DNA of 24,000 nucleotides from Infirmifilum uzonense (GCF_000993805.1 NZ_CP009961.1:1-24000), one strand, 5' to 3'. Shown: positions 166 through 11,489, numbered from the stretch's first letter. Numbers and translations: made by a program. The notes: generated by a model not told the origin, from the sequence alone.

Positions 166-295
166 GGGCCGGTGGCTCAGCCAGGTAGAGCATCCGAGCG
201 CTTCCTATAGCGCGGTGAAGCTGATAAACGAGCGCGCCCCTCTGGCGCCTCTTCCAGAGACCGGGGGGTCCCGGGTTCAAATCCCGGCCGGCCCA
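166..295 (+). tRNA. tRNA-Ile(GAU) with two introns (197-219 at position 30/31; 227-259 at canonical 37/38)
   Basis: The acceptor GGGCCGG/CCGGCCC plus A73, the D arm GCTC-AGCCAGGTA-GAGC and the T arm CCGGG-TTCAAAT-CCCGG were read directly. Removing 197-219 and 227-259 yields the anticodon arm TCCGG-CTGATAA-CCGGG. Intron 1 folds as a bulge-helix-bulge: central helix CATC(191-194)/GGTG(214-217), 3-nt bulges CGA and AAG, cuts at 196|197 and 219|220, and inner helix GCGCT/AGCGC. Intron 2 has helix CTG(221-223)/CAG(255-257), bulges TAA and AGA, and a long inner helix GAG(C)GCGCC/GGCGCCTC. Confidence 0.85.
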
Positions 296-316
296 CTCTT
301 TATAATCTTGGGGGGT

Positions 317-526
317 CTAGTATGTCTTCTCAGCTTCCCATTCCTCTGAGAGTCCTTCGATCCTGCTTTGATGTTCTTCTAGCTCCCTGAGCATTGCATC
401 TATGTCGTCGAGTATTTTCCTTGGGTCTGGCAGAATGTCGGCGTAGGCCCTGAGAGGGGCGATGTGTGTGCAGGACTTGGGGGTCCTCGAAGTAAACGCG
501 GACATCAACGCATGCTTGAACATCAC
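317..526 (-). CDS. Short ORF whose C-terminal ~41 aa are conserved with the ORF in copy 2; function unknown, possibly a gene fragment
   Basis: IAPLRAYADILPDPRKILDDIDAMLRELEEHQSRIEGLSEE aligns with IASLRIYADIPPEYRKTLNSMDAMLRELEEHRDTLESILEE (24 of 41 identical). About ten of the conserved residues use different synonymous codons. The N-terminal part is not conserved and is antisense to the tnpB remnant. Confidence 0.3.
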   Translation of the reverse strand: MMFKHALMSAFTSRTPKSCTHIAPLRAYADILPDPRKILDDIDAMLRELEEHQSRIEGLSEEWEAEKTY

Positions 527-656
527 TCACAAGACACGATACAGCCCGCCCACACCAAACGAGGTCAAAGCCTTCGTGTCGACACATAGCGGAGTCATAC
601 CACTCAACGAGAAAAAGAGAAAAATACACCAAGAGCAATACACTAATCCCTAGAAG
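462..656 (+). pseudogene. tnpB: Degenerate C-terminal remnant of an IS200/IS605-family TnpB (RuvC-III region only)
   Basis: The translation ...LEVNADINACLNITHKTRYSPPTP...THSGVIPLNEKK contains the D-x-N-A-x-x-N-I pattern typical of the TnpB/Cas12 RuvC-III motif (495-524). No RuvC-I/II or zinc ribbon remains. The stop is followed by hairpins CCCT-AGA-AGGG and GCCAC-CCCCA-GTGAC. Confidence 0.55.
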
Positions 657-761
657 GGTAACCCTGGAGCCACCCCCAGTGACGCAGGGCAGCAGTCGGC
701 GCTAGGCCGCTTCTGATCTTATTTTAGAGACTTACAACGACAATGACTGGAAAATAAGAAG

Positions 762-840
762 CAGTGTCCCGGGTGTGGGTTGCCGCTTTTCATTGCTGGC
801 GCGAAGGCGCCTCGAGCGGCGACCAATAGTCACCCGGGTC
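762..840. ncRNA. GC-rich nested-stem structured RNA candidate (H/ACA-like if read on the minus strand)
   Basis: There are three nested helices: CCCGGGTG(768-775)/CACCCGGG(831-838), GTTGCCGCT(779-787)/AGCGGCGAC(815-823) and GGCGC(798-802)/GCGCC(807-811) with loop GAAG. On the minus strand the outer stem is followed at once by ACA (767-765) and a T-rich tract. On that strand the C-A mismatch in stem 2 would leave a pocket whose top lies 14 nt from ACA. On the plus strand the same position is a G-U wobble, so the strand is ambiguous. Confidence 0.4.
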
Positions 841-862
841 ATGAATAAATTGAGGCAAAGGG

Positions 863-870
863 TTAAATTA
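863..870. promoter_or_regulatory. Palindromic TATA-like element TTAAATTA between the RNA candidate and the 905 gene
   Basis: It lies about 35-42 nt upstream of ATG 905 on the plus strand. On the minus strand it lies about 25-32 nt upstream of the outer stem at 838. It could therefore serve either direction. Confidence 0.3.
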
Positions 871-904
871 GCATTGTGTATTTTTTCAAACACGGTGTTG
901 TGTA

Positions 905-1270
905 ATGGGTGAGGGAAGCGACCTTGAAATAATAAAGAAGAGAATGCTGCTTGAAATGCAAAGAAAAATGCTCGAAAAAGAACTTAAAAAGGCTGAACCA
1001 GACTACTACAGTATTTTTCTCAAATACTTAACTGATGATGGCAGGATCATGTTTGAGAAGGCTGTCGAGCAATATAGTGATACTGCCAAGAAGATAGGAG
1101 AAAAGCTTGGTAAATTATTTTATTCAGGCAGGCTACGGGAAAAGCTAAATGCAGAGGCTGTATATTGGATTTTTTATGAGATTGGGCTTCCAATTCGTCT
1201 TGAGACGAAAATCGTCTATAAGAAGGGCAGAGAATACAAATCGATAAGTGATGTCTTAAAAGAGGAATAG
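905..1270 (+). CDS. PDCD5/TFAR19-like dsDNA-binding protein (COG2118-type), tentative
   Basis: The 121-aa ORF has an N-terminal charged helix (EIIKKRMLLEMQRKMLEKELKK). Its C-terminal pattern ...KLNAEAVYWIFYEIG...IVYKKGREYKSI resembles archaeal PDCD5 homologs as I recall them. Confidence 0.5.
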   Translation: MGEGSDLEIIKKRMLLEMQRKMLEKELKKAEPDYYSIFLKYLTDDGRIMFEKAVEQYSDTAKKIGEKLGKLFYSGRLREKLNAEAVYWIFYEIGLPIRLETKIVYKKGREYKSISDVLKEE

Positions 1271-1376
1271 GATTTGATGAAACTTGATTCAACATGTGTT
1301 TCTCTGAGGATACATATTCGAGGCACATATAAAAATAAATAAAGGGGATGAAATTGTCTCATGCCTGGGGATTCGG

Positions 1377-1679
1377 ATGCCTAAGCCCGTAAAGATAATT
1401 TTCGTCGGGGCATCGTGGGCCGACTTTAACAAGGAGCTAAAAAGCATAAGCCAGGAGGTGGCTAAAAGCAAAGGTTTAGAGTTTGAGGAAAAGCAAGAGG
1501 ACTACGTTTTTCTAACAAAGTATGGCGAGAAGGACGAGTTCGGAGGGGCTGACATTCCGCAAGTATTCGTGGTATACGACAACGGAAAGATAAAACACGT
1601 CCTCACGAAAGTACCTATCGTCGGGACAAAACCCGACTTCGAGGCTGCGAGGCGTAAGATAGAGGAAGCTTTGAGTTAG
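1377..1679 (+). CDS. Hypothetical small protein, possibly thioredoxin/glutaredoxin-like fold lacking the CxxC cysteines
   Basis: The 100-aa ORF starts with ATG, and a TATA-like CATATAAAAATAAATAAA lies about 35-50 nt upstream. KIIFVGASWADF sits where a CxxC motif would be, and IPQVFVVYDNG resembles the cis-Pro strand. The fold assignment is weak. Confidence 0.45.
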   Translation: MPKPVKIIFVGASWADFNKELKSISQEVAKSKGLEFEEKQEDYVFLTKYGEKDEFGGADIPQVFVVYDNGKIKHVLTKVPIVGTKPDFEAARRKIEEALS

Positions 1680-1687
1680 GTTCCGGG

Positions 1688-4213
1688 TTATTTCTTTGAC
1701 TTAATTTGCAGAAAATCATCAATGGATTGTATTCCAAGGAGCTCGTCAAAACTTATTCCAAGAGCATCGAGAACCTGTTCCAATGTGGTCTTCATTATGT
1801 CTAGATACTTCTCAGTGTCTATTTCATCTATTCGTGCAAGTTGTACATGCTTTACACCTTCCCTATCCCTTGTCTTCACATAGCTAACGACACTACCCTT
1901 CATAATGTTTACTGGAGTACTGCCATAGAGCTTCTTGTATTCTCGCAATAACTGTTGTGCAGCCTTCTTGTGTTGAGGGGTTGTTTCGACATATTCTTGT
2001 AGGTCCTTCGTTAATACCACGTTAAATGCCAGTTGATCCAATGAAATCTGATTATTTTTCAAGCGCATAATTGATTCTCTGATATCATCCTTTACTTGTT
2101 CGATAGCTTCTTCAAACGAGGTAATGGTGTCCGCTTTTGAAAGTGTTGTTACAACATCTGTGAACAGCTTCTTTATGAATTCGGGGGTGTTTCTTTTCTT
2201 TCCGACAAGACCCTTTACGTCTATTTTTCCATCCTTTAACGCTCCGAGGTAGTTCTTTTTCCTTTCACTGAAAACAACCCACTTGTACTCTTTGTCAACA
2301 CTGAGGTCTATTTTTAAATCATCGAGAACTGACTGTAGCAGTTTTTCTAATTTATCGCGGCTTGGATTCCAGAGGAAGAGGCTGTCAGTGTCTCCGTAAA
2401 GAACAGGAATGCCTAGATCTACAGCCTTCCTCATGGTCTTCAAGATAGCGTATCTTCCAAGGGCTGTTGTGCTTTCCGCTACCGGGGGACAGTATAGTGG
2501 GAATGCTTCGGAACCGAAGACACCGTAACTTGCGTTTAGAAAAACTTTGAGTGCAGACTGGATCACATCGTAGTGTTGCTTCTCGTCTTCAGACTTTACC
2601 TCTTTTGCCGCCTTCTTGTAAACGTATACGCGGAGATCCCTTAGGATCCCGATAATGGAAGCCATCATTCCTCTTCGACGTGTGCAAACCCAGTGGGGTG
2701 TTCCTGGGACTATGTTCCTTTTACATTCCTCGTGGGGGCATCGAACTGTTTCGTAGCTCAGGTTGCCAGTTTTGATTACGCTCGGATATAGGCTAGCGAA
2801 GTCAACTACAAGCACGTTGAAGTACATTCCGGGTAAGGGGTCGATAACTATTGCTCCAAGATATTTCTTCCCCTTAATTATTGCGCGGGTTGAAGTATCA
2901 CCTTTAATTCTCTTGATATCCTCAGGGTTGGGTATGAGCCAGCCCCTCTGCCTATGCTCGTAGTAGAACATATTTCGGATCCATGCCGAGATGTTGTGAC
3001 GTGTTAGGTCTTCCATTGGTAGTTTAGATATTCTCATCATAAGTATGATGAGTTTGATAACAAGGTCGTCGTTGAAAGCTGTTAACTCGTAGGTGAGCTC
3101 GGCATCACGAAAGCTGTACTCTGCTAGACGCTGATAGGTCATCTCTGAAATCAACTCCTCGTGTCTTACCTTGCCTTTTCCGAGGAGGGCTGAAGCTATT
3201 TCGTCCAAAGTGTTTCCTTCCCTGTATTTGTTTCCAAAAGCATAGACACGCATGGACTTATTTGTGAAGAACTTGTAGAGGTCAATGTGAATAGAGTTTC
3301 GTAGTTCGGGGTACTCGTCTCTTTCTTTCCATGAGATTGGTATCTCTTCTTTCTTGAATCCTAGCTTTAAGGCTCTATTGTAGAGGTAAGGTAGGTCAAA
3401 ACTATCACCGTTAAAGGTGACTAAGAGAGGATACTCTTCGATCAACTTGAAAGTTGCAAGTAGAAGCTCTTTTTCATCCTTAAAGAAAGTTATCCTAGCG
3501 TCTCCCAGCGAGATTTGTGTGTTCCCATGTTTTTCCTCTCTCTCTAAAAGGTATACTCCTTTTCTGCCATCGGATGAGTAATACGAAACGGCTATTACCT
3601 TGTCCTCTGCGAGCTTCGGACTGGGTACTCTAAGAGCCTCAGACTCCACTTCTATGTCTATCGCAACTCTTTTAATCTTGGGAATAGGGGCGCTTAGGAG
3701 TTTCGCCCACTCTATCATTTCTGCAGCTTGGATTTTATCCTCTACAAGGCCTTCTACAAGTTTACGTATGCCTTCAGGGACACTAGTCTCCACTATTTTG
3801 GGTTCCCCGTCCTCATACTTATAGGGCATTCCTGGAATGATTTGTCTATCGTATATGTAGCAGTGATGATATTTTATTTTAGCTTCCCATGAGTGATCCT
3901 TTAAGAGTTCACGAATACTTTTCCCAGAACCACCTATAGATAGTGGATCGTTGGCTTCCACTTTGGTCATCCTAATCCAACGATCGTTAAGTGCATCGTA
4001 TTTCTCGACAATATCAAGCTTGTTGAACCCCGGATGCTTTATAACTTCAGGGAATTTCTCAATGATCTCGTCGGGTGTAAGGTCAGTTAGAAGGTAAGGC
4101 TTGTGTCCGCTGTAGTCCGGAATCTTTACTATTTTATGTTCTTCGTCGTCATAAAAGTAGAGGACTGCTCGGCCATCGCTCCCCGAGTACCTTACTGAGA
4201 ACAAGTAAAGCAA
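1688..4213 (-). CDS. polB: Family B DNA polymerase, PolB1 (Dpo1) type
   Basis: The 841-aa ORF carries the exonuclease motifs AIDIEV, FNGDSFDLPYL and YSFRDAELTY. It carries the polymerase motifs DFASLYPSVI, KVFLNASYGVFG and YGDTDSLF. It is colinear with my recollection of S. solfataricus Dpo1 (GHKPY, KIKRVAIDIEV, NTPQH). Confidence 0.96.
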   Translation of the reverse strand: MLYLFSVRYSGSDGRAVLYFYDDEEHKIVKIPDYSGHKPYLLTDLTPDEIIEKFPEVIKHPGFNKLDIVEKYDALNDRWIRMTKVEANDPLSIGGSGKSIRELLKDHSWEAKIKYHHCYIYDRQIIPGMPYKYEDGEPKIVETSVPEGIRKLVEGLVEDKIQAAEMIEWAKLLSAPIPKIKRVAIDIEVESEALRVPSPKLAEDKVIAVSYYSSDGRKGVYLLEREEKHGNTQISLGDARITFFKDEKELLLATFKLIEEYPLLVTFNGDSFDLPYLYNRALKLGFKKEEIPISWKERDEYPELRNSIHIDLYKFFTNKSMRVYAFGNKYREGNTLDEIASALLGKGKVRHEELISEMTYQRLAEYSFRDAELTYELTAFNDDLVIKLIILMMRISKLPMEDLTRHNISAWIRNMFYYEHRQRGWLIPNPEDIKRIKGDTSTRAIIKGKKYLGAIVIDPLPGMYFNVLVVDFASLYPSVIKTGNLSYETVRCPHEECKRNIVPGTPHWVCTRRRGMMASIIGILRDLRVYVYKKAAKEVKSEDEKQHYDVIQSALKVFLNASYGVFGSEAFPLYCPPVAESTTALGRYAILKTMRKAVDLGIPVLYGDTDSLFLWNPSRDKLEKLLQSVLDDLKIDLSVDKEYKWVVFSERKKNYLGALKDGKIDVKGLVGKKRNTPEFIKKLFTDVVTTLSKADTITSFEEAIEQVKDDIRESIMRLKNNQISLDQLAFNVVLTKDLQEYVETTPQHKKAAQQLLREYKKLYGSTPVNIMKGSVVSYVKTRDREGVKHVQLARIDEIDTEKYLDIMKTTLEQVLDALGISFDELLGIQSIDDFLQIKSKK

Positions 4214-4219
4214 TAAGAC

Positions 4220-4432
4220 TCACCGCGTAAACCTCTCTACTCTCCAAACGTTTCTCCTATAGTTTTTCTTATACTCTTTATAATGCTCACGGCATAGGTA
4301 TACCCGTTTCGTCCCCTCTTTAAGCTTAAGATTGACCCCACTCCGTTTATAGTTTTCAAGCGATATTGATCTCACTGCATCGTTGTCACAACCCTCAACG
4401 GAACATTTCACTCCCTTGTCAACACGTCCCAT
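4220..4432 (-). CDS. Small basic Cys/His (putative zinc-binding) protein immediately upstream of polB1
   Basis: The 70-aa ORF has C10-x4-C15 ... C47-x2-H50 and a Lys/Arg-rich C-terminus. Its stop lies 6 nt before the polB start on the same strand. Confidence 0.6.
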   Translation of the reverse strand: MGRVDKGVKCSVEGCDNDAVRSISLENYKRSGVNLKLKEGTKRVYLCREHYKEYKKNYRRNVWRVERFTR

Positions 4433-4493
4433 GGAATACCCACAATACTAAAAAACAAACCACAGATAAATAGAAAGCGTATAAAGTTAGATA

Positions 4494-4649
4494 TTACTTC
4501 TTGTATCGCTTAGGTCTCAAATCACGGCTATGGCAACGCCTGCACCTCTCCGCGTCCCATGGGTTCCTCGCATTACACCTCCTACAAATCTTAACTTTAA
4601 AGTGGTAGTCCAAGGCTAACTGTAGTTTCTCGGGATCTCTTATAGGCAT
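4494..4649 (-). CDS. rpl40e: 50S ribosomal protein L40e
   Basis: It is not in the ORF track because it is only 51 aa. Hand translation of the minus strand gives [51 protein letters not shown], the L40e zinc-ribbon pattern. A TATA-like TTTTAAAG lies about 35-40 nt upstream. Confidence 0.9.
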
Positions 4650-4832
4650 AACTTACCCCTTGGCTATCGAATAGACGATCGCTTTAAAACTTTTTGTCAA
4701 CGCCTCAGAATCTGCTAAAATATAAAGATAACTATGAAAGACAAATATACATGTACTGATAAGTCTTCGCTTAGAGATTCAATAGGATCACCATCTTTAA
4801 AAACACTATTCTAGTTAGCCCTCCCTGTGATC

Positions 4833-6095
4833 ATGGAAAAAACCTCTAGTTTAAAATCCATAGCAAGGACAAACGTGTTCATCCTAGCAGTTGGCGCTCT
4901 CCTAATAGGCTTAATCCTAGGAGCATTAATGAGCTCTCTACTATGGAATAGATCTACCCAAAACACTCAGCAGACAATAACGGTTCCCATAGGCGCGCTC
5001 CTAGAGCTTACCGGCGACTTAGAGTCTTATGGTAAGAGAGACCAAGTAGCCCTCGAGCTCGCTGTTCAGGACATTAATGCTTTTGCTGAGAGTGTTGGGT
5101 CTCCTTTCCGTTTCAAGCTTTTAGTCGAGGATACTGCTACTAGCCCTGAGCAGGCTAGGGCCAAGATACAGGTTCTAGCTGCTCAAGGCGTCCAGGCTAT
5201 TATAGGTCTTGAGGCGAGTAGCGAGGTGAGCAGCGTTAAACAGTTCGCAGACGCCAACAAGATAGTCGTGATCAGTGTGGGATCCACCGCTGCATCTCTA
5301 GCTATTCCGGGTGACTATATCTTCAGGGTGGTTCCCAATGATAACTATCAGGGTAGGGCCCTGGCCAGGCTTGTGTGGAGTAGTGGCTTCAGGTCTGCGG
5401 TCGTCATATACAGGAACGACGCCTGGGGCAAGGGGCTTTACGACTCCTTCACTGCTAGGTTCCAGGAGCTCGGCGGGAGGGTTGCAGGCATACCCTACGA
5501 CCCCAACGCCCAGGACCTCTCAGGGGAGGCTGCGAGGCTCGCGCAGCAGGCCGCGGCCCTAGGCCCTGACACGGCAGTTGTGCTCGTGAGCTTCGAGGAC
5601 GACGGGATAAGGGTGATACAGGCTGCAGCACAAAACCCCACGCTAGCCCACCTCAAATGGTTCGGAACAGATGGAGTAGCGCTCTCTACCAAGCTCACAG
5701 ATCAGGTAGGTGCACAACTGGTCGCATTGGGAGGACTTCCATGTACAATCTTCCAGCCGGCTGGGAACCCTCAGCAAAGCAGGTTTGTCGAAGCATTCTT
5801 GAAGAAGATGAATGAGTATCCACACTCATATGCTATGAATGCTTATGATGCTGCCTGGCTAATAGCCCTAGCAGTAATGACGACAGGACAATACAACGGC
5901 GAAACAATAGCAAAAGCACTACCAACAATAGCACAACACTACTACGGAGTAACAGGAAACACAGCACTAGACCAAAACGGAGACAGATCAGCGGGAGACT
6001 ACGCTATTTGGACAGTAGTGCAAACACCGAATGGGTATAACTGGACTCAAATTGCGGTGTACAATTCAATTACAGACCAAGTGACAAGAGTCTAA
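4833..6095 (+). CDS. ABC-transporter substrate-binding protein, branched-chain amino acid (LivJ/LivK, type I PBP) family, N-terminally membrane anchored
   Basis: There is an N-terminal TM segment (VFILAVGALLIGLILGALMSSLLW). It is followed by GALLELTGDLESYGKRDQVALELAVQDINA, which is typical of Leu/Ile/Val-binding proteins. ATG 4833 is preferred over the track's GTG 4827 because TCTTTAAAAA (4793-4802) fits a leaderless start. No permease or ATPase gene is adjacent. Confidence 0.8.
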   Translation: MEKTSSLKSIARTNVFILAVGALLIGLILGALMSSLLWNRSTQNTQQTITVPIGALLELTGDLESYGKRDQVALELAVQDINAFAESVGSPFRFKLLVEDTATSPEQARAKIQVLAAQGVQAIIGLEASSEVSSVKQFADANKIVVISVGSTAASLAIPGDYIFRVVPNDNYQGRALARLVWSSGFRSAVVIYRNDAWGKGLYDSFTARFQELGGRVAGIPYDPNAQDLSGEAARLAQQAAALGPDTAVVLVSFEDDGIRVIQAAAQNPTLAHLKWFGTDGVALSTKLTDQVGAQLVALGGLPCTIFQPAGNPQQSRFVEAFLKKMNEYPHSYAMNAYDAAWLIALAVMTTGQYNGETIAKALPTIAQHYYGVTGNTALDQNGDRSAGDYAIWTVVQTPNGYNWTQIAVYNSITDQVTRV

Positions 6096-6607
6096 GCAGG
6101 ACGAGCCATCAAGTATGCGTCTTCGCCATCAAGATAGTACCCTGGCAAGACCTTTACAACGTTAAAGCCCAGTTTTTTGTAAAGTCTTATAGCTATTTCA
6201 TTACTAACTCTAACCTCTAGATAGTATTCCTCTGCACCATAGTATTTCTTCATGTTCTCCAAGGCTCTGATCATAAGCTCAGTTCCTATACCACGTCCTT
6301 GAGCAAAGGGGAGTACAGCAATAGAAATTATGTGTCCTCGTTTCCCTATTTTGTTAGGGTTAGTGTAGAGCGTGTCATACTCTACTCTGCACATAATATA
6401 GCCCACTATGCGCCCATCTAGCTCCGCGACTAAGAAGGCTTTCCCGAAATTTCTGTAATGCATTTCGAAGTAAAATACAGGATAGTTTTCAGGCAATACT
6501 TCCTTATTTATCCTTATGACTTCACCTAACTCTTCGTGTCTAACCTCTCTAATGATGAAATCTTTTCTAGACGTGGTAGACACCTCTCGAACGAGGAGAG
6601 AAAACAA
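6092..6607 (-). CDS. ard1: N-alpha-acetyltransferase (GNAT; Ard1/RimI type)
   Basis: LPENYP, RGHIISIAVLPFAQGRGIGTEL and YLEVRVSN...LYKKLGF...GYYLDGEDAYLMARP are colinear with S. solfataricus Ard1 as I recall it. The start is uncertain: TTG at 6607 or GTG at 6583, with no in-frame ATG near the N-terminus. The 3' end overlaps the convergent binding-protein gene by 4 nt. Confidence 0.88.
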   Translation of the reverse strand: MFSLLVREVSTTSRKDFIIREVRHEELGEVIRINKEVLPENYPVFYFEMHYRNFGKAFLVAELDGRIVGYIMCRVEYDTLYTNPNKIGKRGHIISIAVLPFAQGRGIGTELMIRALENMKKYYGAEEYYLEVRVSNEIAIRLYKKLGFNVVKVLPGYYLDGEDAYLMARPA

Positions 6608-6627
6608 TTTCAGCTTTTATTTTTTGT

Positions 6628-7220
6628 CTAGTCTTCTATTAAAACTCCTTGCTCTTTGAGTATAGCATAGATTTTGTTTACGGCGTTTTTTACCTCTTCT
6701 TCTTTTTTAGCCCCTGTGCACACAACTTTGCCACTGCTGAAGATCAGTAAGACGACCTTCGGCTCGTTCATACGATAGATTAGTCCAGGAAATTGTTCAG
6801 GCTCATACATAGCGTTTTCTAGTAGGAAGGCAGCCCGTTCAAGGTCAACAGCCGCCTTGAGGTTAGCGCTCGCCACTATGTTCTGTATCTCAACTATGGG
6901 CTCATTTCTAATGTCTATTCCGTGCTGCTTTAAGAGTTTGATAATGCTTCCAACAGCCTTCTTGACCTCCGTCTCTGACTTTGCTCCTGTACATACCATT
7001 TTCCCGCTGGAGAATATTAGCGTTGCTGTTTTCGGTCTGTTTAGTCTAAGCACTAGACCCGGAAACTCTCGGATCCCAGGTCCGGAGACCTGGGATGTTC
7101 CGGACTATACTCGGCGTGAGGTATTCGTTCAGCTATACGCTCTAGATCTAAACGTTGGTTGAGGGTTACAGAGGCAACAACGTTTTGAATCTCATAGGTT
7201 GGTTCAGGTATGTTGACCAC
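6628..7220 (-). CDS. tbp: TATA-box-binding protein, reading frame interrupted by a 29-nt insert (7066-7094)
   Basis: The segment from GTG 7220 to 7095 encodes [42 protein letters not shown]. The segment 7065 to 6628 encodes [30 protein letters not shown]... through the second repeat ([34 protein letters not shown]). The two parts are in different frames. Joining them gives a normal 187-aa two-repeat TBP. Confidence 0.85.
7066..7094 (-). other. 29-nt frame-breaking insert in tbp with a perfect 10-bp hairpin
   Basis: In mRNA sense it reads CCCAGGUCUCCGGACCUGGGAUCCGAGAG. The hairpin arms are 7073-7082 and 7087-7096 with a 4-nt loop. It was delimited by requiring the ...PEH|FPGL... junction. Confidence 0.7.
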
Positions 7221-7230
7221 CCCTTACGGG

Positions 7231-7260
7231 TTTATAAATATCTTGAAGAGATATATAAAT
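7231..7260 (-). promoter_or_regulatory. Two TATA-like boxes upstream of tbp
   Basis: On the minus strand these read ATTTATATAT (7260-7251) and TATTTATAAA (7240-7231). The distal box fits a transcription start about 9 nt before GTG 7220. Confidence 0.4.
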
Positions 7261-7302
7261 ACTTACCCATAGGAGGAGTAAGGAATAAAGTATGTTGAAG
7301 AT

Positions 7303-7719
7303 TTAATGTGAAATTAATCTTTCGAAGATTAATTTAAGGTTACCTATATACGGAATCACGAAAATTACTCTGCCCTTTATCGTAAACTTATCAGGATGGA
7401 TGCTGTCGGGGTAAGGGTTCGCATCTCCTTTAGTAATGAATTTATCACCGTTAACGCCGACAATCCTGTGAACAATTAGACCAGAAGGAGACTCGTAAAC
7501 CACAATATCTCCTATAGAGTACTGGCTGGCGCCATAAACAACCACTATGTCTCCAACGTGAAGGGTGGGCTCCATTGACCAGCTCGATACCACGGCTAGG
7601 GGGACTTGCGTGTGTAACAGGTACCCGAGGGAAAAAATAAGAGCGACGGCTACTAGAAGAGTAGAAATTAACATCGCGTGTTCGATAATTTTGTTTCTTT
7701 TTTGTTTAACCTCATCCAC
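7303..7719 (-). CDS. Signal peptidase I (archaeal Sec11/S26B type)
   Basis: The 138-aa ORF has an N-terminal TM helix, then the SWSMEPTL catalytic-Ser motif, then HRIV and GDAN motifs. Confidence 0.85.
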   Translation of the reverse strand: MDEVKQKRNKIIEHAMLISTLLVAVALIFSLGYLLHTQVPLAVVSSWSMEPTLHVGDIVVVYGASQYSIGDIVVYESPSGLIVHRIVGVNGDKFITKGDANPYPDSIHPDKFTIKGRVIFVIPYIGNLKLIFERLISH

Positions 7720-7784
7720 GCATCTTCACGCATTTGACGGAGATATATAATTCTTTCTTGAGGGATGGAAAAATAAAGAAAAGT

Positions 7785-7824
7785 TTTTATAGAAGTGATG
7801 TTTTTCTGGAAATGCTAAGGGTGA
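7785..7824 (+). promoter_or_regulatory. Thermosome promoter (TATA TTTTTATAG 7785-7793) and SD-like AAGGGTGA (7817-7824)
   Basis: The TATA centre lies about 40 nt before ATG 7830. The GGTGA-type motif lies about 6 nt before that ATG. Confidence 0.4.
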
Positions 7825-7829
7825 ATTCC

Positions 7830-9470
7830 ATGGCTCAGCCTTCAGGCCAGATTCCTGTTTTGATATTGAAAGAAGGTACTCAGCGAACGACCGGGCGTGA
7901 TGCTAGAAAAGCCAACATTTATGCTGCCAGGGTTATAGCTGAAGCCCTAGCAAGCTCTCTAGGTCCACGCGGAATGGACAAGCTACTGGTAGGCTCCTTT
8001 GGAAACGCCACAATTACCGGTGATGGAGCTACAATTCTTAAGGAAATGGAGGTTCAGCATCCCGCGGCCAAGATGCTTGTCGAGGTGGCAAAGGCTCAAG
8101 ACGACGAGGTTGGTGACGGCACAACTAGCGTTGTTGTACTTGCCGGACAACTACTCACAGCGGCTGAAGAATTGATAGATCAAGACATCCACCCAACTAT
8201 TATCACCGAGGGCTTCGAGAAGGCTCTCGTAGAAGCGACGAAGAAAATTGACGAGATGGCGGTAAAAGTAGACCCGTTGGACAGAAATATCCTCGAGAAG
8301 ATTTCGCAAACAGCTCTTTCAAGCAAAGTTGTAGCCGAGTATAAAGAGTTTCTATCAAAGATAGTAGTTGAAGCAGCCCTCCAAGTAGCAGAAAAAAGGG
8401 ACGGTGGATACAAGCTCAGTCTGGATGACATAAAGGTTGAGAAGAAGAAGGGTGAAAGTATAACAGAGACTACGCTTGTGAAGGGTATTGTTCTAGACAA
8501 GGAGGTTGTACATCCAGCCATGCCTAAGAGGGTTGAGAACGCGAAAATAGCGCTTCTAGACGCTCCACTAGAGATCGAGAAGCCTGAGTGGACCGCAAAA
8601 ATTAACGTAACCACGCCTGAGCAGCTGAAAATGTTCCTCGACCAGGAGGCCGAAATACTACGCAGGAAAGTAGAGAAGATTAAGGAGAGTGGTGCTAATG
8701 TTGTTTTCTGTCAGAAGGGTATTGATGATGTTGCTCAGTATTATCTTGCCAGGGCTGGTATTCTTGCTGTGAGGCGTGTTAAGAAGAGTGATATGGAGAA
8801 GCTTGCCCGTGCTACTGGTGCTAAGATACTTACAAGGGTTGAGGATATTTCTCCAGAGGCTCTCGGCAATGCAAGGCTCGTGGAGGAGAGGAAGGTCGCG
8901 GACGAGAAGATGGTCTTCGTTGAAGGCTGCCCCAACCCCAAGAGCGTGACAATACTCGTCCGAGGCGGTGCTGAACATATTGTCGACGAGGCTGAGCGAG
9001 CGATTCATGATGCTCTCAGTGTTGTCCGAAATGTCATAGAGGATCCGAAGATAGTAGCGGGTGGAGGCGCAGTTGAGATAGAGTTGGCTATGAAATTAAG
9101 GGAATTTGCTAACACTCTGCCAAGCAAGGAGAAATTAGCGGTTGAAAAGTATGCCGAAGCTCTCGAGAACATAGTCGCAATACTTGCGCAGAACGCGGGA
9201 GCTGAGCCCATAGACGTGTTAACAGAGCTCAAGCGTCTACACGCAAGGGGCGAAAAATGGGCTGGTATTAATGCTTACACAGGCAAGGTTGAGGATGCTT
9301 ACAAGGCTGGAATACTTGAGCCAGCAATTGTCAAGAAACAAGTCTTAAAGTCGGCTACAGAGGCAGCAATAATGATAATGAGAATTGACGATATCATCGC
9401 AGCTCAGCCTCCGAAAGGGAAAGAGAAGGAGAAGGAGAAAACACCTTCCGGAGAATTCGAAACCGATTAA
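7830..9470 (+). CDS. ths: Thermosome subunit (group II chaperonin)
   Basis: MAQPSGQIPVLILKEGTQRTTGRDA..., the GDGTTS nucleotide-binding motif and a C-terminal KGKEKEKEK tail are present. ATG 7830 is preferred over the track's TTG 7734 because of the SD and a typical thermosome N-terminus. Confidence 0.95.
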   Translation: MAQPSGQIPVLILKEGTQRTTGRDARKANIYAARVIAEALASSLGPRGMDKLLVGSFGNATITGDGATILKEMEVQHPAAKMLVEVAKAQDDEVGDGTTSVVVLAGQLLTAAEELIDQDIHPTIITEGFEKALVEATKKIDEMAVKVDPLDRNILEKISQTALSSKVVAEYKEFLSKIVVEAALQVAEKRDGGYKLSLDDIKVEKKKGESITETTLVKGIVLDKEVVHPAMPKRVENAKIALLDAPLEIEKPEWTAKINVTTPEQLKMFLDQEAEILRRKVEKIKESGANVVFCQKGIDDVAQYYLARAGILAVRRVKKSDMEKLARATGAKILTRVEDISPEALGNARLVEERKVADEKMVFVEGCPNPKSVTILVRGGAEHIVDEAERAIHDALSVVRNVIEDPKIVAGGGAVEIELAMKLREFANTLPSKEKLAVEKYAEALENIVAILAQNAGAEPIDVLTELKRLHARGEKWAGINAYTGKVEDAYKAGILEPAIVKKQVLKSATEAAIMIMRIDDIIAAQPPKGKEKEKEKTPSGEFETD

Positions 9471-9525
9471 ACAAAGATTAGACTTTAAAAAGATTTAAAT
9501 ATTGTTTTTCTTGTCTAACTCGTTT

Positions 9526-9822
9526 ATGTTCGAGGGTAATATTTCAAAAGGTAATACCTCATCGTCTAAATTTCAAGTCAAGATTGGTCCACCCTGGCTG
9601 ACAAGGTTTGAGAAAGCCCGGATTCTTGGTATAAGAGCCCTTCAGATCTCCTTTGGGGCGCCCGTCTTGATCCCAGTTGAGGAGTCTGAGAATATAGACG
9701 CTATAAAAATAGCCGAGAGAGAGCTTGAGATGGGCGTTTTACCAATAGTCATAGTACGTTGGACACCAGAGGGAAGAGTCCAGGACATACCATTAAAGTT
9801 CTTAAAGCTTAGTCCACCCTAA
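9526..9822 (+). CDS. rpoK: DNA-directed RNA polymerase subunit K (Rpo6/Rpb6 homolog)
   Basis: LTRFEKARILGIRALQISFGAPVLI...AERELEMGVLPIVIVR is the Rpb6/omega-like core. ATG 9526 is preferred over TTG 9502, and TTTAAATA (9493-9500) fits a near-leaderless start. Confidence 0.88.
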   Translation: MFEGNISKGNTSSSKFQVKIGPPWLTRFEKARILGIRALQISFGAPVLIPVEESENIDAIKIAERELEMGVLPIVIVRWTPEGRVQDIPLKFLKLSPP

Positions 9823-10178
9823 CCCTCTCGCTTCAATTCTATTTTTTCATTTGAGATCGTAATCTCAAAGAAGTCTCCAATGCTAGGCTTCGTAACGAAC
9901 TTTTCCCATTCATCTTCGGTTAATACCAATGTAACTCTTGGAACACGCATAACTCCGGGCGAAGCTCCGGGAAACATTCTCATGATTTGCGATATTATTG
10001 GGGCTATTTCACGACTTATCTCGCTATCCGGAGATCTCACAAACATGGGCTCGGGCATTTCTCTTTCCTCTGTTAGTTCCAATTTCACCATTCTCTCTCC
10101 AAAGGGAGCGTCAAAAAGAGAGATATTAGAGACCTTTGCTTTAAACCTAACAGATATTTCAGACATGTGTAATCCCAT
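9819..10178 (-). CDS. Hypothetical protein
   Basis: The ORF is open to 10223 (TTG). The first ATG codons are at 10178 and 10166, and a TATA-like TATTTTAA lies near 10240-10250. I recognise no motif. Its 3' end overlaps convergent rpoK by 4 nt. Confidence 0.5.
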   Translation of the reverse strand: MGLHMSEISVRFKAKVSNISLFDAPFGERMVKLELTEEREMPEPMFVRSPDSEISREIAPIISQIMRMFPGASPGVMRVPRVTLVLTEDEWEKFVTKPSIGDFFEITISNEKIELKREG

Positions 10179-10284
10179 TATCCGAGCTCTAATTATGTTT
10201 TTTGCAGTGGAATGTGAAATCAAAATTTCTCATGTGATATGGTTAAAATACGTCATGTGGTTAACATGAGAACAGAATCCAAGA

Positions 10285-10384
10285 AGCCCCGGCCGGGATT
10301 TGAACCCGGGACCTTCGGCTCCCTCGAACCCCCCTCTCTAGGGCCTTACAAGGCCGACGCTCCACCAGTCTGAGCTACCGGGGC
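10285..10384 (-). tRNA. tRNA-Thr(UGU) with a 26-nt canonical intron (10321-10346)
   Basis: The minus strand reads GCCCCGG-TA-GCTC-AGACTGGTG-GAGC-G-TCGGC-CTTGTA[intron]A-GCCGA-AGGTC-CCGGG-TTCAAAT-CCCGG-CCGGGGC-T. The BHB central helix is CTTG/CGAG with bulges TAA and GGA. A TATA-like AATAAATTTA lies 27-36 nt upstream. Confidence 0.9.
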
Positions 10385-10532
10385 TTACCAAGTCTCAAGG
10401 CATTTAGGGGTAAATTTATTGTTTTCGCACTTGTTTTCATCGACGTCTCGGATACAATCCTGAAGTATATTAGATATTTAACACCATCCAGCCGCCCTGC
10501 GCCACTGGGGGGTGGCTCCCGGTTACCCCTCT

Positions 10533-10880
10533 TAGGGGTTATTGTTTCTGGCCTGGTACTTTTTTCCTTCTCGTTTAGTGGTGTGACTCCTTGGTGTGTG
10601 GGGGTGTAGGTCTCGATTCTGGTCGGTGTTGGCGGGGTGTATCCTGCCTTCCTGGCGATGTTTAAGCATGCGTTGATGTCCGCGTTGGCCTCGAGGCCGC
10701 ACCGGGGGCACGGGGAGGCGTTGGACGCTTACAGCCGGGCGTTTCCCCCTCGCCGGTGCCCTCAACATTAACCCGGGGGAGTCCAGGGCTATGCAGGCCT
10801 GGCAGGTTGACCACGCGGGGAGGGCGTACCACGCCCTAAGCGAGGCGGTCGAGGAGGTAAACCTTCGACGCACACGCATA
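10533..10880 (-). pseudogene. tnpB: Degenerate C-terminal remnant of IS200/IS605-family TnpB (zinc ribbon plus RuvC-III), frameshifted
   Basis: Minus-strand hand translation gives ...PAWSTCQAC... in one frame. In another frame, from 10710, it gives CPRCGLEANADINACLNIARKAGYTPPTPTRIETYTPTHQGVTPLNEKEK. Together these form a CxxC...CxxC ribbon followed by the D-x-N-A-x-x-N-I motif. Stops and at least one frameshift lie between the two halves, and no N-terminal two thirds of TnpB is present. Confidence 0.6.
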
Positions 10881-11003
10881 GCCTCTCTAAGGATTTACGC
10901 GGACATCCCCCCAGAATACAGGAAGACACTCAACAGCATGGACGCGATGCTCAGAGAGCTAGAAGAGCACAGAGACACTCTTGAAAGCATCCTCGAGGAA
11001 TAA
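10791..11003 (+). CDS. Short ORF with a conserved C-terminal segment (homolog of 317-526), function unknown
   Basis: It shares the block IASLRIYADIPPEYRKTLNSMDAMLRELEEHRDTLESILEE with copy 1. It reads toward the 3' end of the adjacent tRNA. Its N-terminal 30 aa are antisense to the tnpB remnant and are not conserved. Confidence 0.3.
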   Translation: MQAWQVDHAGRAYHALSEAVEEVNLRRTRIASLRIYADIPPEYRKTLNSMDAMLRELEEHRDTLESILEE

Positions 11004-11043
11004 GAAGCGGGGAAGACACACTAGAACCCCCAAGATTATAGCC

Positions 11044-11171
11044 TGGTGGGCCCGCCGGGATTTGAACCCGGGACCTCCGCCGATCTCCGGCGAACCCCAT
11101 ATACGAATTCCTTGTGCTCGCCGCGCGACTCGCTGCGCAAGGGCGACATCCTACCGCTAGACTACGGGCCC
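11044..11171 (-). tRNA. Intron-containing tRNA with anticodon UGC (Ala-type) but a G3-C70 acceptor stem; genomically encoded CCA; 53-nt intron (11083-11135)
   Basis: The minus strand reads GGGCCCG-TA-GTCT-AGCGGTA-GGAT-G-TCGCC-CTTGCG[intron]C-GGCGG-AGGTC-CCGGG-TTCAAAT-CCCGG-CGGGCCC-A-CCA. The BHB has helix CTTG/GGAG (3 pairs plus G-G), bulges CGC and ATC, and inner helix GCGAGTC/GGGTTCGC. The isotype is uncertain because the Ala identity pair G3-U70 is absent. Confidence 0.75.
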
Positions 11172-11212
11172 CTGACAAAAATAATTCACAAAAGTCCAGG
11201 TTAAAAGTTTTT

Positions 11213-11266
11213 TCAGCCTTCGTGTGCCGTTCCTCATTCCTATTCAGACGGCAAGTCACTCATCAT
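11213..11266 (-). ncRNA. C/D-box sRNA candidate
   Basis: The minus strand reads ATGATGA(C)-GTGACTTGCCGT(12 nt)-CTGA(D')-ATAGGA-ATGAGGA(C'-like)-ACGGCACACGAAGG(14 nt)-CTGA(D). A TATA-like TTTTATATTTTT (about 11283-11295) sits at roughly the right distance upstream. The caveats are that the two guide regions are partly complementary to each other and that the second spacer is long. Confidence 0.4.
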
Positions 11267-11387
11267 CATTTTTACACCTCTGACAAAAATATAAAACCAT
11301 TAGCTTTCCTAGAGGGTGATCGTTCTTTCAAGTAAATGATTGATGTACTGGCTTTTCCGAGAGATAGCGTTTTAAACTGTAAGATTA

Positions 11388-11489
11388 CGGGCCGGCCGGG
11401 ATTTGAACCCGGGTCCTACGGGTTAAAAGCCTCAACCTGCCTAGGAGGACTAGGCAAACCGTCGCTCTTCCTAGCTGAGCTACCGGCCC
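11388..11489 (-). tRNA. tRNA-Lys(UUU) with a 28-nt intron at non-canonical position 30/31 (11431-11458)
   Basis: The minus strand reads GGGCCGG-TA-GCTC-AGCTAGGAA-GAGC-G-ACGG[TTTGCCTAGTCCTCCTAGGCAGGTTGAG]G-CTTTTAA-CCCGT-AGGAC-CCGGG-TTCAAAT-CCCGG-CCGGCCC-G. The BHB central helix is CGAC/GTTG with bulges GGT and AGG. The inner helix is TGCCTAG/CTAGGCA. Confidence 0.88.

What the first reader, a model, noticed from the sequence alone, without database searches (positions are those of the whole stretch)
296..11047. Two diverged copies of a discrete GC-rich element inserted just beyond the 3' ends of two different tRNA genes, in the same relative orientation
Region 301-690 follows tRNA-Ile on the plus strand. 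Region 10494-11040 follows the UGC tRNA on the minus strand.

The two regions are homologous end to end once one is reverse-complemented. Both begin 3-6 nt after the tRNA 3' end with TATAATCTTGGGGG(G/T)TCTAGT(A/G)TGTCTTC. Both end with GGTTACCC...CCACCCCC(C)AGTG(A/G)CGCAGGGC. Similarity stops abruptly at both ends, and the flanks are unrelated.

The best block (around 488-527 versus 10657-10696) has 4 mismatches in 40 nt, and other blocks are clearly more diverged. Copy 1 differs by a ~158-bp deletion between TCGAGG direct repeats.

The two tRNAs share an identical 22-nt stretch (GGTCCCGGGTTCAAATCCCGGC). That stretch could serve as a recombination or attachment core.

Sharp shared ends, a tRNA-3' location and foreign-looking GC content together point to a small tRNA-targeting mobile or integrative module, or to the conserved terminus of one. 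I cannot match it to a described family.
Basis: partly seen in the sequence, partly recalled or inferred. Interest (0 to 1): 0.7.

Follow-up and report, generated by a model that had tools for sequence, protein, structure and literature searches.

The report
Decayed TnpB transposon remnants beside tRNAs
The two GC-rich regions are real, diverged copies of a multi-copy repeat of the hot-spring archaeon Infirmifilum: the tail end of a TnpB (IS200/IS605-type) transposon fused to a small conserved gene on the opposite strand. It is not a tRNA-specific integrating element, because most other copies lie away from tRNA genes.

Summary
Window 301-693 (+) and 10491-11040 (-) are homologous end to end (about 73-75% identity, a 157-bp length difference), and each starts 5-6 nt after an intron-bearing tRNA.

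The right half is the last 25-60 codons of a tnpB gene (second zinc knuckle CPRCG and RuvC-III motif NADINAxLNI) plus its tail, down to a sharply conserved right end. This is where such elements encode their guide (omega) RNA. It is 88% identical to the 3' end of a full-length TnpB gene on contig L005.

The left half carries a 70-aa ORF on the opposite strand. It is a predicted two-helix hairpin with dN/dS about 0.3 and in-frame tandem stops. It has no known homologue outside Infirmifilum and at least 11 annotated paralogues on the I. uzonense chromosome.

Six other loci place the left end away from any tRNA. The "identical 22-nt core" is the ordinary tRNA T-arm. There is no integrase and no duplicated att.

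Three of nine loci still abut tRNA 3' ends in the same orientation, and this is unexplained. Verdict: a non-autonomous IS200/IS605-derived repeat with an unusual antisense gene. Interest is moderate to low.

The parts
166..295 (+). Intron-bearing tRNA upstream of copy 1.
   Evidence: Rfam RF00005, 45.7 bits, with a 65-nt insertion in the anticodon region.
301..693 (+). Copy 1, the short form (393 bp) of the repeat.
   Evidence: Alignment and blastn against copy 2. Identical in L010, and 88% identical to the L008 copy at a non-tRNA locus.
301..329 (+). Conserved left terminus of copy 1 (TATAATCTTGGGGGGTCTAGTATGTCTTC). It contains a TATA-like TTTATAA and the in-frame backup stop (CTAG) of the antisense ORF.
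317..526 (-). 69-aa antisense ORF of copy 1. The C-terminal 43 residues belong to the ORF70 family. The N-terminus is antisense to the TnpB RuvC-III codons.
486..644 (+). TnpB C-terminal remnant of copy 1 (LEVNADINACLNITHKTRYSPPTP...).
   Evidence: tblastn with the L005 TnpB: 57% identity over 53 aa, E=3e-19.
622..696 (+). Right-end block of copy 1 with hairpin (U)CCCU-AGA-AGGG(U) and terminal ...GGAGCCACCCCCAGTGACGCAGGGCAGC. Presumed 3' part of the omega-RNA scaffold / transposon right end.
   Evidence: nhmmer right-end profile, E=2.6e-17.
11047..11171 (-). Intron-bearing tRNA upstream of copy 2. The anticodon reads UGC if the intron is canonical, and the acceptor stem has G3-C70.
   Evidence: Rfam RF00005, 54.4 bits.
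10491..11040 (-). Copy 2, the long form (550 bp) of the repeat.
   Evidence: Orthologous copies are 91.5% (L001) and 92% (L014) identical.
10791..11003 (+). ORF70: an intact 70-aa antisense gene, 100% identical to I. uzonense MA03_00070.
   Evidence: dN/dS is 0.29 in its frame. AlphaFold2 predicts a two-helix hairpin with pLDDT 89.6.
10528..10710 (-). TnpB C-terminal remnant of copy 2 (CPRCGLEANADINACLNIARKAGYTPPTP...). The decayed first zinc knuckle (STCQAC) lies further upstream, out of frame.
   Evidence: tblastn with the L005 TnpB: 85% identity over 61 aa, E=6e-36. Homologues carry PF07282.
10488..10563 (-). Right-end block of copy 2: hairpin ACCCCU-AAG-AGGGGU and the terminal stem GCCACCC...GGGCGGC.
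   Evidence: nhmmer E=6.8e-21.
10285..10384 (-). Third tRNA, 106 nt (10385-10490) beyond the right end of copy 2. It has the same 22-nt T-arm and is not followed by a copy.
11388..11489 (-). Fourth tRNA. Its T-arm differs by 1 nt, and no copy follows it.

Best explanation
The two regions belong to a lineage-specific, multi-copy, non-autonomous repeat family of Infirmifilum (Thermofilaceae). The family descends from a tnpB-carrying IS200/IS605-type (IS1341-like) insertion sequence.

Anatomy, reading away from the tRNA:
1. A roughly 30-nt left terminus.
2. A 70-aa gene (ORF70) on the opposite strand, reading back towards the left terminus.
3. The last 25-60 codons of tnpB (zinc knuckle and RuvC-III), now frameshifted.
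4. The tnpB tail and non-coding end, down to a sharply conserved right end with two small hairpins. In intact elements this 3' segment encodes the omega (guide) RNA scaffold.

Shown here:
- Homology of the right half to a full-length TnpB gene.
- A multi-copy, mosaic family.
- Protein-level constraint on ORF70.
- Copies at non-tRNA sites.
- Absence of the element at the same locus in two sister species.

Inferred:
- An internal-deletion derivative (ORF70 backwards, 3' tnpB forwards) became the unit that spread. The same deletion junction recurs at several loci, so it was copied after the deletion. It was presumably mobilised in trans by the transposase of one of the two IS200/IS605 elements reported in the I. 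uzonense genome.
- Copies have since been homogenised and shuffled by recombination between copies.
- Any residual function would be a TnpB-less omega-like RNA and/or the small ORF70 protein.
- The position just 3' of tRNA genes is a site preference or a retention bias (a safe, strongly transcribed place), not an integrase-type tRNA attachment.
For: Origin of the window:
- ORF 10791-11003 is 100% identical to I. uzonense MA03_00070.
- The GlyRS gene is 100% identical to an Infirmifilum protein.

Right half is TnpB-derived:
- The peptide CPRCGLEANADINACLNIARKAGY... finds only short Infirmifilum fragments, one of which carries PF07282.
- A 90-aa ORF in L012 is annotated Cas12f1-like_TNB.
- L005 holds a 456-aa ORF scoring 135 bits (cut-off 100) on NF040570 'RNA-guided endonuclease TnpB', covering positions 3-389 of 389.
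- The L005 3' end is 88% identical in DNA to copy 2 positions 336-534 and 85% identical in protein.

Family size:
- At least 11 ORF70 paralogues sit on the 1,611,988-bp I. uzonense chromosome, 9 of them with MA03 locus tags.
- TnpB-tail fragments MA03_06995 and MA03_06740 add to this.
- MA03_06995 and MA03_07000 are numbered consecutively and are read here as a divergent TnpB-fragment/ORF70 pair.

ORF70 is coding:
- dN/dS is 0.29 in its own frame against 0.7-1.6 in four other frames and 0.41 in the frame that shares wobble positions.
- Variable sites by codon position are 10/5/17.
- Homology between copies ends at its in-frame tandem stops TAA...TAG.
- AlphaFold2 gives pLDDT 89.6 for a helical hairpin.

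Not tRNA-specific:
- Searches show six loci without a tRNA at the left end.
- The T-arm 22-mer is generic.

Insertion-like distribution:
- Sister species L017 and L019 (GlyRS 80-81% identical) lack the element at this locus (blastn).
- L019 keeps the same gene order with unrelated AT-rich DNA after the same tRNA.

Mosaicism and rearrangement:
- L008 is near-identical to copy 1 on the left and diverged on the right.
- L004 joins an L016-like left half to the right half and flank of copy 2.
- L014 truncates copy 2 at position 403, with a new flank.

Literature:
- Non-autonomous IS200/IS605 derivatives (PATEs) that still encode omega RNAs are described (PMC10055086).
- The I. uzonense genome paper reports two IS200/IS605 elements (PMC4673724).
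Against: - No left-end hairpin was found, and there is no conserved motif (TAM) in the 5' flanks. Canonical IS200/IS605 transposition would require both (flanks CTCTT, CAGGC, AAGTG, ATGAG, GCCCG, GTTAG).
- The left module has no detectable homology to L005 or to TnpB on either strand, so where ORF70 sat in an intact ancestor is unknown.
- RNA evidence for an omega RNA is weak. Fold z-scores are -0.04 and -0.67. Only 4 of 22 consensus pairs show compensatory change, and those depend on one distant sequence. There is no Rfam hit.
- Three of nine loci sit within 36 nt 3' of a tRNA in the same orientation (5 and 6 nt for the two window copies), far more than random placement predicts. The model does not explain this.
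- The complete I. uzonense genome could not be searched, so copy number and flanks come from protein annotations and nine DNA loci.
Confidence: 0.75

Rival explanations
1. The region is a small integrative module that targets tRNA genes, or the terminus of such a module. It would use the shared 22-nt tRNA stretch as its recombination core, like archaeal SSV- or pNOB8-type integrated elements.
For: - Copies 1 and 2 start 5-6 nt after a tRNA, in the same orientation, and share a 27/29-identical terminus.
- A right-end fragment in L004 (1359-1403) lies 36 nt after another tRNA.
Against: - Six loci have no tRNA at the left end.
- The 22-mer is in 3 of 4 window tRNAs, with 1 mismatch in the fourth. 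It is also in tRNAs not followed by a copy at related loci, including species that lack the element at this locus.
- There is no integrase domain in any frame or ORF.
- No partial tRNA duplicate lies at the far end.
- The 5-6 nt between the tRNA and the element differ completely (CTCTT versus CCAGGC).
- The right half is demonstrably the tnpB 3' end.
Confidence: 0.05
2. ORF70 is an ordinary, if orphan, host gene family. It expanded by segmental duplication. The TnpB tail is simply its conserved upstream region, captured once and never mobile as a unit.
For: - ORF70 is under purifying selection, and homology ends at its stop codons.
- Left ends are heterogeneous and no target motif is seen.
- The family is confined to one genus.
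Against: - The right boundary is razor-sharp and coincides with a transposon right end.
- Copies sit in unrelated intergenic contexts with no flanking DNA co-duplicated.
- Right-end-only fragments exist.
- P0005 reads from a right end straight into the middle of another ORF70, which looks like a nested insertion.
Confidence: 0.1
3. The copies are functional solo guide-RNA genes. They would be TnpB-less omega RNAs, each carrying its flank as guide, expressed by read-through from the upstream tRNA or from the TATA-like left terminus, and used in trans by a TnpB encoded elsewhere.
For: - The short form retains almost exactly the segment from RuvC-III to the right end, which is where omega RNAs map.
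- Three copies lie directly 3' of tRNAs in the sense orientation.
- PATEs encoding omega RNAs used in trans are discussed in PMC10055086.
- The genome has an intact IS200/IS605 element.
Against: - There is no thermodynamic or clear covariation signal.
- Most copies are not next to tRNAs.
- The TnpB frame still shows residual coding-type substitution (dN/dS 0.42), which fits decay rather than RNA selection.
- No expression data are available.
Confidence: 0.1

Closest known systems
IS200/IS605-family tnpB-only elements (IS1341 group) with overlapping omega RNA (OMEGA systems)
   Same: - The right half is homologous to the tnpB 3' end: second CxxC knuckle and RuvC-III motif D/N-A-D-x-N-A-x-x-N-I.
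- Homology continues through the tail to a sharply conserved right end with small hairpins, in the same layout as the omega-RNA/right-end region.
- A full-length relative (L005) passes the NCBIfam TnpB cut-off.
   Different: - There is no intact TnpB and no TnpA in the window.
- No left-end hairpin or conserved flanking TAM was found.
- A conserved 70-aa gene on the opposite strand replaces most of tnpB.
PATE / MITE-like non-autonomous derivatives of IS200/IS605 (as discussed in PMC10055086)
   Same: - Short (0.39-0.55 kb) and multi-copy.
- Keeps the transposon end and the presumed omega-RNA region.
- Lacks a transposase and must rely on functions supplied in trans.
- Acts as a substrate for recombination and rearrangement.
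   Different: - PATEs lack protein-coding genes, whereas this family carries ORF70 under purifying selection.
- The left ends are heterogeneous between subfamilies.
Archaeal tRNA-integrating elements (SSV-type and pNOB8-type integrase elements)
   Same: Two copies and one mini-copy lie immediately 3' of tRNA genes.
   Different: - No integrase or integrase fragment is present.
- No att duplication of the tRNA 3' part is present.
- Most copies are not at tRNAs.
- The shared 22-mer is the generic T-arm.

Membership tests
IS200/IS605-family TnpB element | Homology to TnpB, including the zinc-ribbon knuckle and the RuvC-III motif. | tested here: met
   tblastn with a full-length TnpB (L005; NF040570, 135 bits against a cut-off of 100) gives E=6e-36 for copy 2 and 3e-19 for copy 1. 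PF07282 is found on family fragments.
IS200/IS605-family TnpB element | An intact tnpB ORF (about 400 aa, with RuvC-I, -II and -III). | tested here: not met
   Only the last 25-60 codons remain, and copy 2 is frameshifted between the two zinc knuckles. No TnpB domain appears in the large window ORFs that were scanned.
IS200/IS605-family TnpB element | Subterminal hairpins at both ends, and a conserved target/TAM motif 5' of the left end. | tested here: inconclusive
   The right-end hairpin ACCCCU-AAG-AGGGGU is conserved. No left-end hairpin is seen. The 5' flanks share no motif.
IS200/IS605-family TnpB element | A TnpA (Y1 HUH) transposase, in cis or available in trans. | not testable with these tools
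   None is present in the window. The genome paper reports two IS200/IS605 elements in I. uzonense, but the genome itself could not be retrieved.
omega RNA (TnpB guide RNA) | A structured RNA overlapping the tnpB 3' end, ending at the right end and followed by a flank-derived guide. | tested here: inconclusive
   Position and the sharp end fit. Fold z-scores are -0.04 and -0.67. Covariation is weak. There is no Rfam match. Expression could not be tested.
PATE/MITE-like non-autonomous IS derivative | Short, multi-copy, with conserved ends and the same internal-deletion junction at several loci. | tested here: met
   Nine DNA loci and at least 11 annotated paralogues were found. The short-form junction is shared by copy 1, L008, L004 and L016.
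PATE/MITE-like non-autonomous IS derivative | No protein-coding capacity. | tested here: not met
   ORF70 is intact in most long-form copies, with dN/dS 0.29.
tRNA-integrating element (tyrosine-integrase type) | An integrase gene or its partitioned fragments next to the tRNA. | tested here: not met
   ORF70 and the other element ORFs have no Pfam, NCBIfam, PHROG or PADLOC hit. The predicted fold is a generic helical hairpin.
tRNA-integrating element (tyrosine-integrase type) | An att core: the tRNA 3' segment repeated at the distal boundary. | tested here: not met
   The 22-mer occurs only inside the four complete tRNA genes.
tRNA-integrating element (tyrosine-integrase type) | All or nearly all copies lie at tRNA genes. 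| tested here: not met
   Six of nine loci have no tRNA at the left end.

The most novel reading that the evidence does not exclude
ORF70 together with the TnpB-less omega-like tail would be a functional two-part cassette rather than debris. In this reading, ORF70 is a new, lineage-specific transposon-associated (or de novo, antisense-born) helical-hairpin protein that keeps the repeat alive. The sense strand would yield a guide-like RNA whose expression is helped by parking directly behind tRNA genes, through read-through transcription and RNase Z processing. That would account for the excess of copies at tRNA 3' ends.
Probability: 0.12. Interest if true: 0.6.

Novelty: new variant of a known kind. 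Interest (0 to 1): 0.35.

Why it matters
If the reading is right, this is mostly genome annotation. About a dozen 'hypothetical proteins' and several short 'Cas12f-like' fragments in Infirmifilum genomes belong to one decayed TnpB-transposon family. That family also marks strain-level rearrangement breakpoints and breaks metagenome assemblies.

Two points go beyond the ordinary:
- A small antisense gene under purifying selection is embedded in a TnpB remnant. It could be a new transposon accessory protein or a case of gene birth on a decaying insertion sequence.
- There is an unexplained excess of copies just behind tRNA genes. This could bear on how single-strand transposons choose sites, or on how solo guide RNAs get expressed in hyperthermophilic archaea.

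Tried and rejected
- ARAGORN found no tRNAs because of their long introns. Rfam was used instead.
- An exact scan for the left terminus in 185,579 species genomes found nothing.
- The protein-pattern scan of the same collection returned only 3 loci and did not reach I. uzonense.
- The metagenome scan returned 3 loci, all from one assembly.
- Two scans of viral contigs found nothing.
- Three look-ups of I. uzonense NCBI proteins were 'not on record'. The complete genome therefore could not be surveyed.
- I tested whether the left module is an inverted or decayed piece of tnpB. blastn and tblastn against the full-length L005 gene gave only chance-level hits, so this was rejected.
- I considered the CTAG found near every left boundary as a transposon target or TAM. 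It was rejected because it is the in-frame TAG (primary or backup stop) of ORF70 in most copies.
- I considered TATAATCTT as a generic tRNA trailer. It was rejected because the other tRNA trailers differ.
- Searches for ORF70 homologues all gave nothing beyond short Infirmifilum proteins and generic helical hairpins. These covered Pfam, NCBIfam, PHROGs, PADLOC, PDB sequences, a Foldseek search of the PDB, and an HMM search of 1.8 billion representative proteins.
- The empty-site search reached two sister species. The element is absent in both, but the surrounding spacer is rearranged (L017) or replaced (L019). No clean empty site or target duplication could be defined.

Full report
**What is in the window.** The window is chromosomal DNA of Infirmifilum uzonense or a near-identical strain.
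- ORF 10791-11003 is 100% identical to MA03_00070.
- The 502-aa GlyRS gene is 100% identical to an Infirmifilum protein.
- The neighbouring genes are housekeeping genes: family-B DNA polymerase, thermosome, GlyRS and RNA polymerase subunits.
- ARAGORN finds no tRNA. Rfam finds four, all with 28-65 nt introns: 166-295 (+), 10285-10384 (-), 11047-11171 (-) and 11388-11489 (-).

**Checking the observation.** The two regions are homologous end to end when one is reverse-complemented.
- Identity is 73-75%, and blastn gives E=1e-25 and 1e-27 for the two blocks.
- The refined coordinates are 301-693 (+) and 10491-11040 (-), that is 393 bp against 550 bp.
- Both copies begin 5-6 nt after the tRNA discriminator base with a 29-mer that is 27/29 identical.
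- Both end at ...GCAGGGC(A/G)GC.
- GC content is 51.5% and 58.9% against 46% for the window.
- The flanks are unrelated.

Three details need correcting. The right ends lie 3 nt further out. The length difference is a subfamily trait shared with other loci, not a private deletion. The 22-nt "core" is present in three of the four window tRNAs, and in the fourth with one mismatch. It also occurs in tRNAs that are not followed by a copy at related loci.

**The right half is the tail of a tnpB gene.**
- In the sense frame, copy 2 reads ...CPRCGLEANADINACLNIARKAGYTPPTP... and copy 1 reads ...LEVNADINACLNITHKTRYSPPTP....
- A database search with this peptide returns only short Infirmifilum proteins, one with the TnpB zinc-ribbon domain PF07282.
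- A 90-aa ORF at another copy is annotated Cas12f1-like_TNB.
- Contig L005 carries a 456-aa ORF that passes the NCBIfam 'RNA-guided endonuclease TnpB' threshold over its full length: 135 bits against a cut-off of 100.
- The last 61 residues of that ORF are 85% identical to copy 2, and the DNA is 88% identical up to the contig end.
- Other copies (L009, L012) keep both zinc knuckles (CSWCG...CPEC).
- Homology among copies continues through the TnpB tail to a sharp, shared end. That end has a conserved hairpin ACCCCU-AAG-AGGGGU and a terminal stem GCCNCCC...GGGCGGC.

This is the position at which IS200/IS605 elements encode the omega RNA scaffold and their right end (established knowledge; PMC10055086). 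I could not show that the RNA is structured or expressed. Fold z-scores are -0.04 and -0.67, covariation is weak, and Rfam has no match.

**The left half is a small gene on the other strand.**
- Copy 2 has an intact 70-aa ORF (10791-11003, +).
- Copy 1 has a 69-aa ORF (317-526, -) that shares the C-terminal 43 residues.
- The I. uzonense chromosome carries at least 11 annotated paralogues, most of them exactly 70 aa.
- Across independent loci, dN/dS is 0.29 in this frame. Four other frames give 0.7-1.6, and the frame that shares wobble positions gives 0.41. Variable sites fall 10/5/17 by codon position.
- Homology between copies stops just beyond in-frame tandem stops (TAA...TAG). This explains the CTAG present at every left boundary.
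- AlphaFold2 predicts a confident two-helix hairpin (pLDDT 89.6).
- There is no hit in Pfam, NCBIfam, PHROGs, PADLOC or PDB sequences, and Foldseek returns only generic hairpins.
- An exhaustive HMM search of 1.8 billion representative proteins finds only about 16 short relatives.
- The left module shows no homology to the full-length TnpB element on either strand.
- Its N-terminus overlaps, in antisense, the decayed first zinc knuckle of TnpB in the long form.

**Family structure.** Nine DNA loci were recovered. They are copy 1 (= L010), copy 2 (= L001, L014), L004 positions 1-206, L004:4600-5005, a right-end fragment at L004:1359-1403, L008, L011, L012 (= L009, L013), L015 and L016.
- There are at least three junction types between ORF70 and the TnpB remnant.
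- Each type recurs at more than one locus, so the deletion derivatives themselves were copied.
- The copies are mosaic. L008 is nearly identical to copy 1 on the left but about 70% identical on the right. L004 joins an L016-like left half to the right half and right flank of copy 2. L014 truncates copy 2 at position 403, with a new flank.
- The I. uzonense protein MA03_06740 reads from a right end straight into the middle of an ORF70, which looks like a nested or recombinant copy.
- Metagenome contigs break at the element.

**Is it tRNA-targeting?** No, not as a rule.
- Six loci have the left end in ordinary intergenic DNA, next to Kae1, a radical-SAM gene, an rRN7-like zinc-ribbon gene, PFO-beta, a metallophosphatase gene and others. 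None has a tRNA on that side.
- There is no integrase, no att duplication, and the 5-6 nt spacers differ completely.
- Two sister species (GlyRS 80-81% identical) lack the element at the GlyRS-tRNA locus. L019 keeps the same gene order, but has about 600 nt of unrelated AT-rich DNA after the same tRNA. L017 is rearranged.
- The element is therefore a lineage-specific acquisition, but no clean empty site could be defined.
- Even so, copy 1, copy 2 and the L004 mini-copy all sit just 3' of a tRNA in the same orientation: 5 nt, 6 nt, and 36 nt to the RE-like block respectively. With roughly 46 tRNAs in 1.6 Mb this is far above random, even allowing for how the first two were ascertained. I have no demonstrated explanation. 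Site preference, safe-haven retention and read-through expression are all possible.

**Mechanism, with what is shown and what is inferred.**
- Shown: TnpB ancestry of the right half; a sharp right end; a multi-copy mosaic family; a constrained antisense ORF; non-tRNA copies; absence in sister species.
- Inferred: spread as a non-autonomous IS200/IS605 derivative, mobilised in trans. The genome paper reports two IS200/IS605 elements, one of them disrupted (PMC4673724). Recombination among copies followed.
- Against canonical peel-and-paste transposition: no left-end hairpin and no conserved TAM in the left flanks.

**Comparison with known systems.** The closest described things are tnpB-only IS200/IS605 (IS1341-type) elements and their PATE/MITE-like derivatives that retain omega RNAs (PMC10055086). 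The family fails the 'no coding capacity' feature of PATEs because of ORF70. It also fails every defining feature of tRNA-integrating elements.

**Novelty and scores.** I rate it a new variant of a known kind, with interest 0.35. The most novel reading not excluded is that ORF70 plus the omega-like tail is a functional cassette that benefits from sitting behind tRNA genes. I give that a probability of about 0.12 and an interest of about 0.6 if true.

Noticed in passing
window about 11210-11270 (-); L019:5770-5826 (+); inverted in L017 at about 5700-5770: A candidate C/D box sRNA lies between two tRNAs. It reads AUGAUGA ... CUGA ... AUGAGGA ... CUGA (C, D', C', D). It is conserved in a sister species and inverted in another. 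Rfam does not call it.
   Followed up: partly
window 11047-11171 (-); L019:5869-5993; L017:7760-7862: The tRNA next to copy 2 reads anticodon UGC if its 56-nt intron is canonical. Its acceptor stem has G3-C70 rather than the G3-U70 expected for tRNA-Ala. A near-identical tRNA body in L017 carries CAC (Val). This may be an anticodon switch or a non-canonical intron; its identity is unresolved.
   Followed up: partly
window 166-295, 10285-10384, 11047-11171, 11388-11489: All four tRNA genes carry long insertions (28, 32, 56 and 65 nt) in the anticodon region. ARAGORN misses all of them, and only the Rfam covariance model finds them.
   Followed up: yes
L004:4500-5010 versus window 10491-11171; L014:2857-3256: Strains of the same species differ by rearrangements whose breakpoints lie inside copies of the repeat. 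In L004, Kae1 rather than a tRNA lies to the left. In L014, an LSM gene rather than a tRNA lies to the right. Metagenome contigs L001 and L002 start inside copy 2 or at its edge.
   Followed up: partly
protein P0005 (I. uzonense MA03_06740): The annotated ORF runs from the TnpB tail through the right end (…NREPAPNGAGRL) directly into an ORF70-like C-terminal half in the sense direction (LDQRKVLDNMNARLGTLEEYRSRIEG). This suggests one copy inserted into, or recombined with, another. The DNA could not be retrieved.
   Followed up: no
L005:88-125: A strong GC hairpin (GCCCCGCCCC...GGGGGCGGGGC) lies about 140 nt upstream of the full-length tnpB start. It may be the left-end hairpin of the intact element. 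Nothing similar occurs in the window copies.
   Followed up: no
L011:2470-2600 (- strand as displayed): A very GC-rich stretch that looks structured lies beyond the truncated copy in this MAG. It has no Rfam hit at gathering threshold.
   Followed up: no
L004:1325-1410: A mini-copy lies directly after a tRNA (1240-1324). It consists of a roughly 50-nt right-end fragment (nhmmer E=2e-6) preceded by about 20 nt that resemble the L004/L016-type left terminus.
   Followed up: partly
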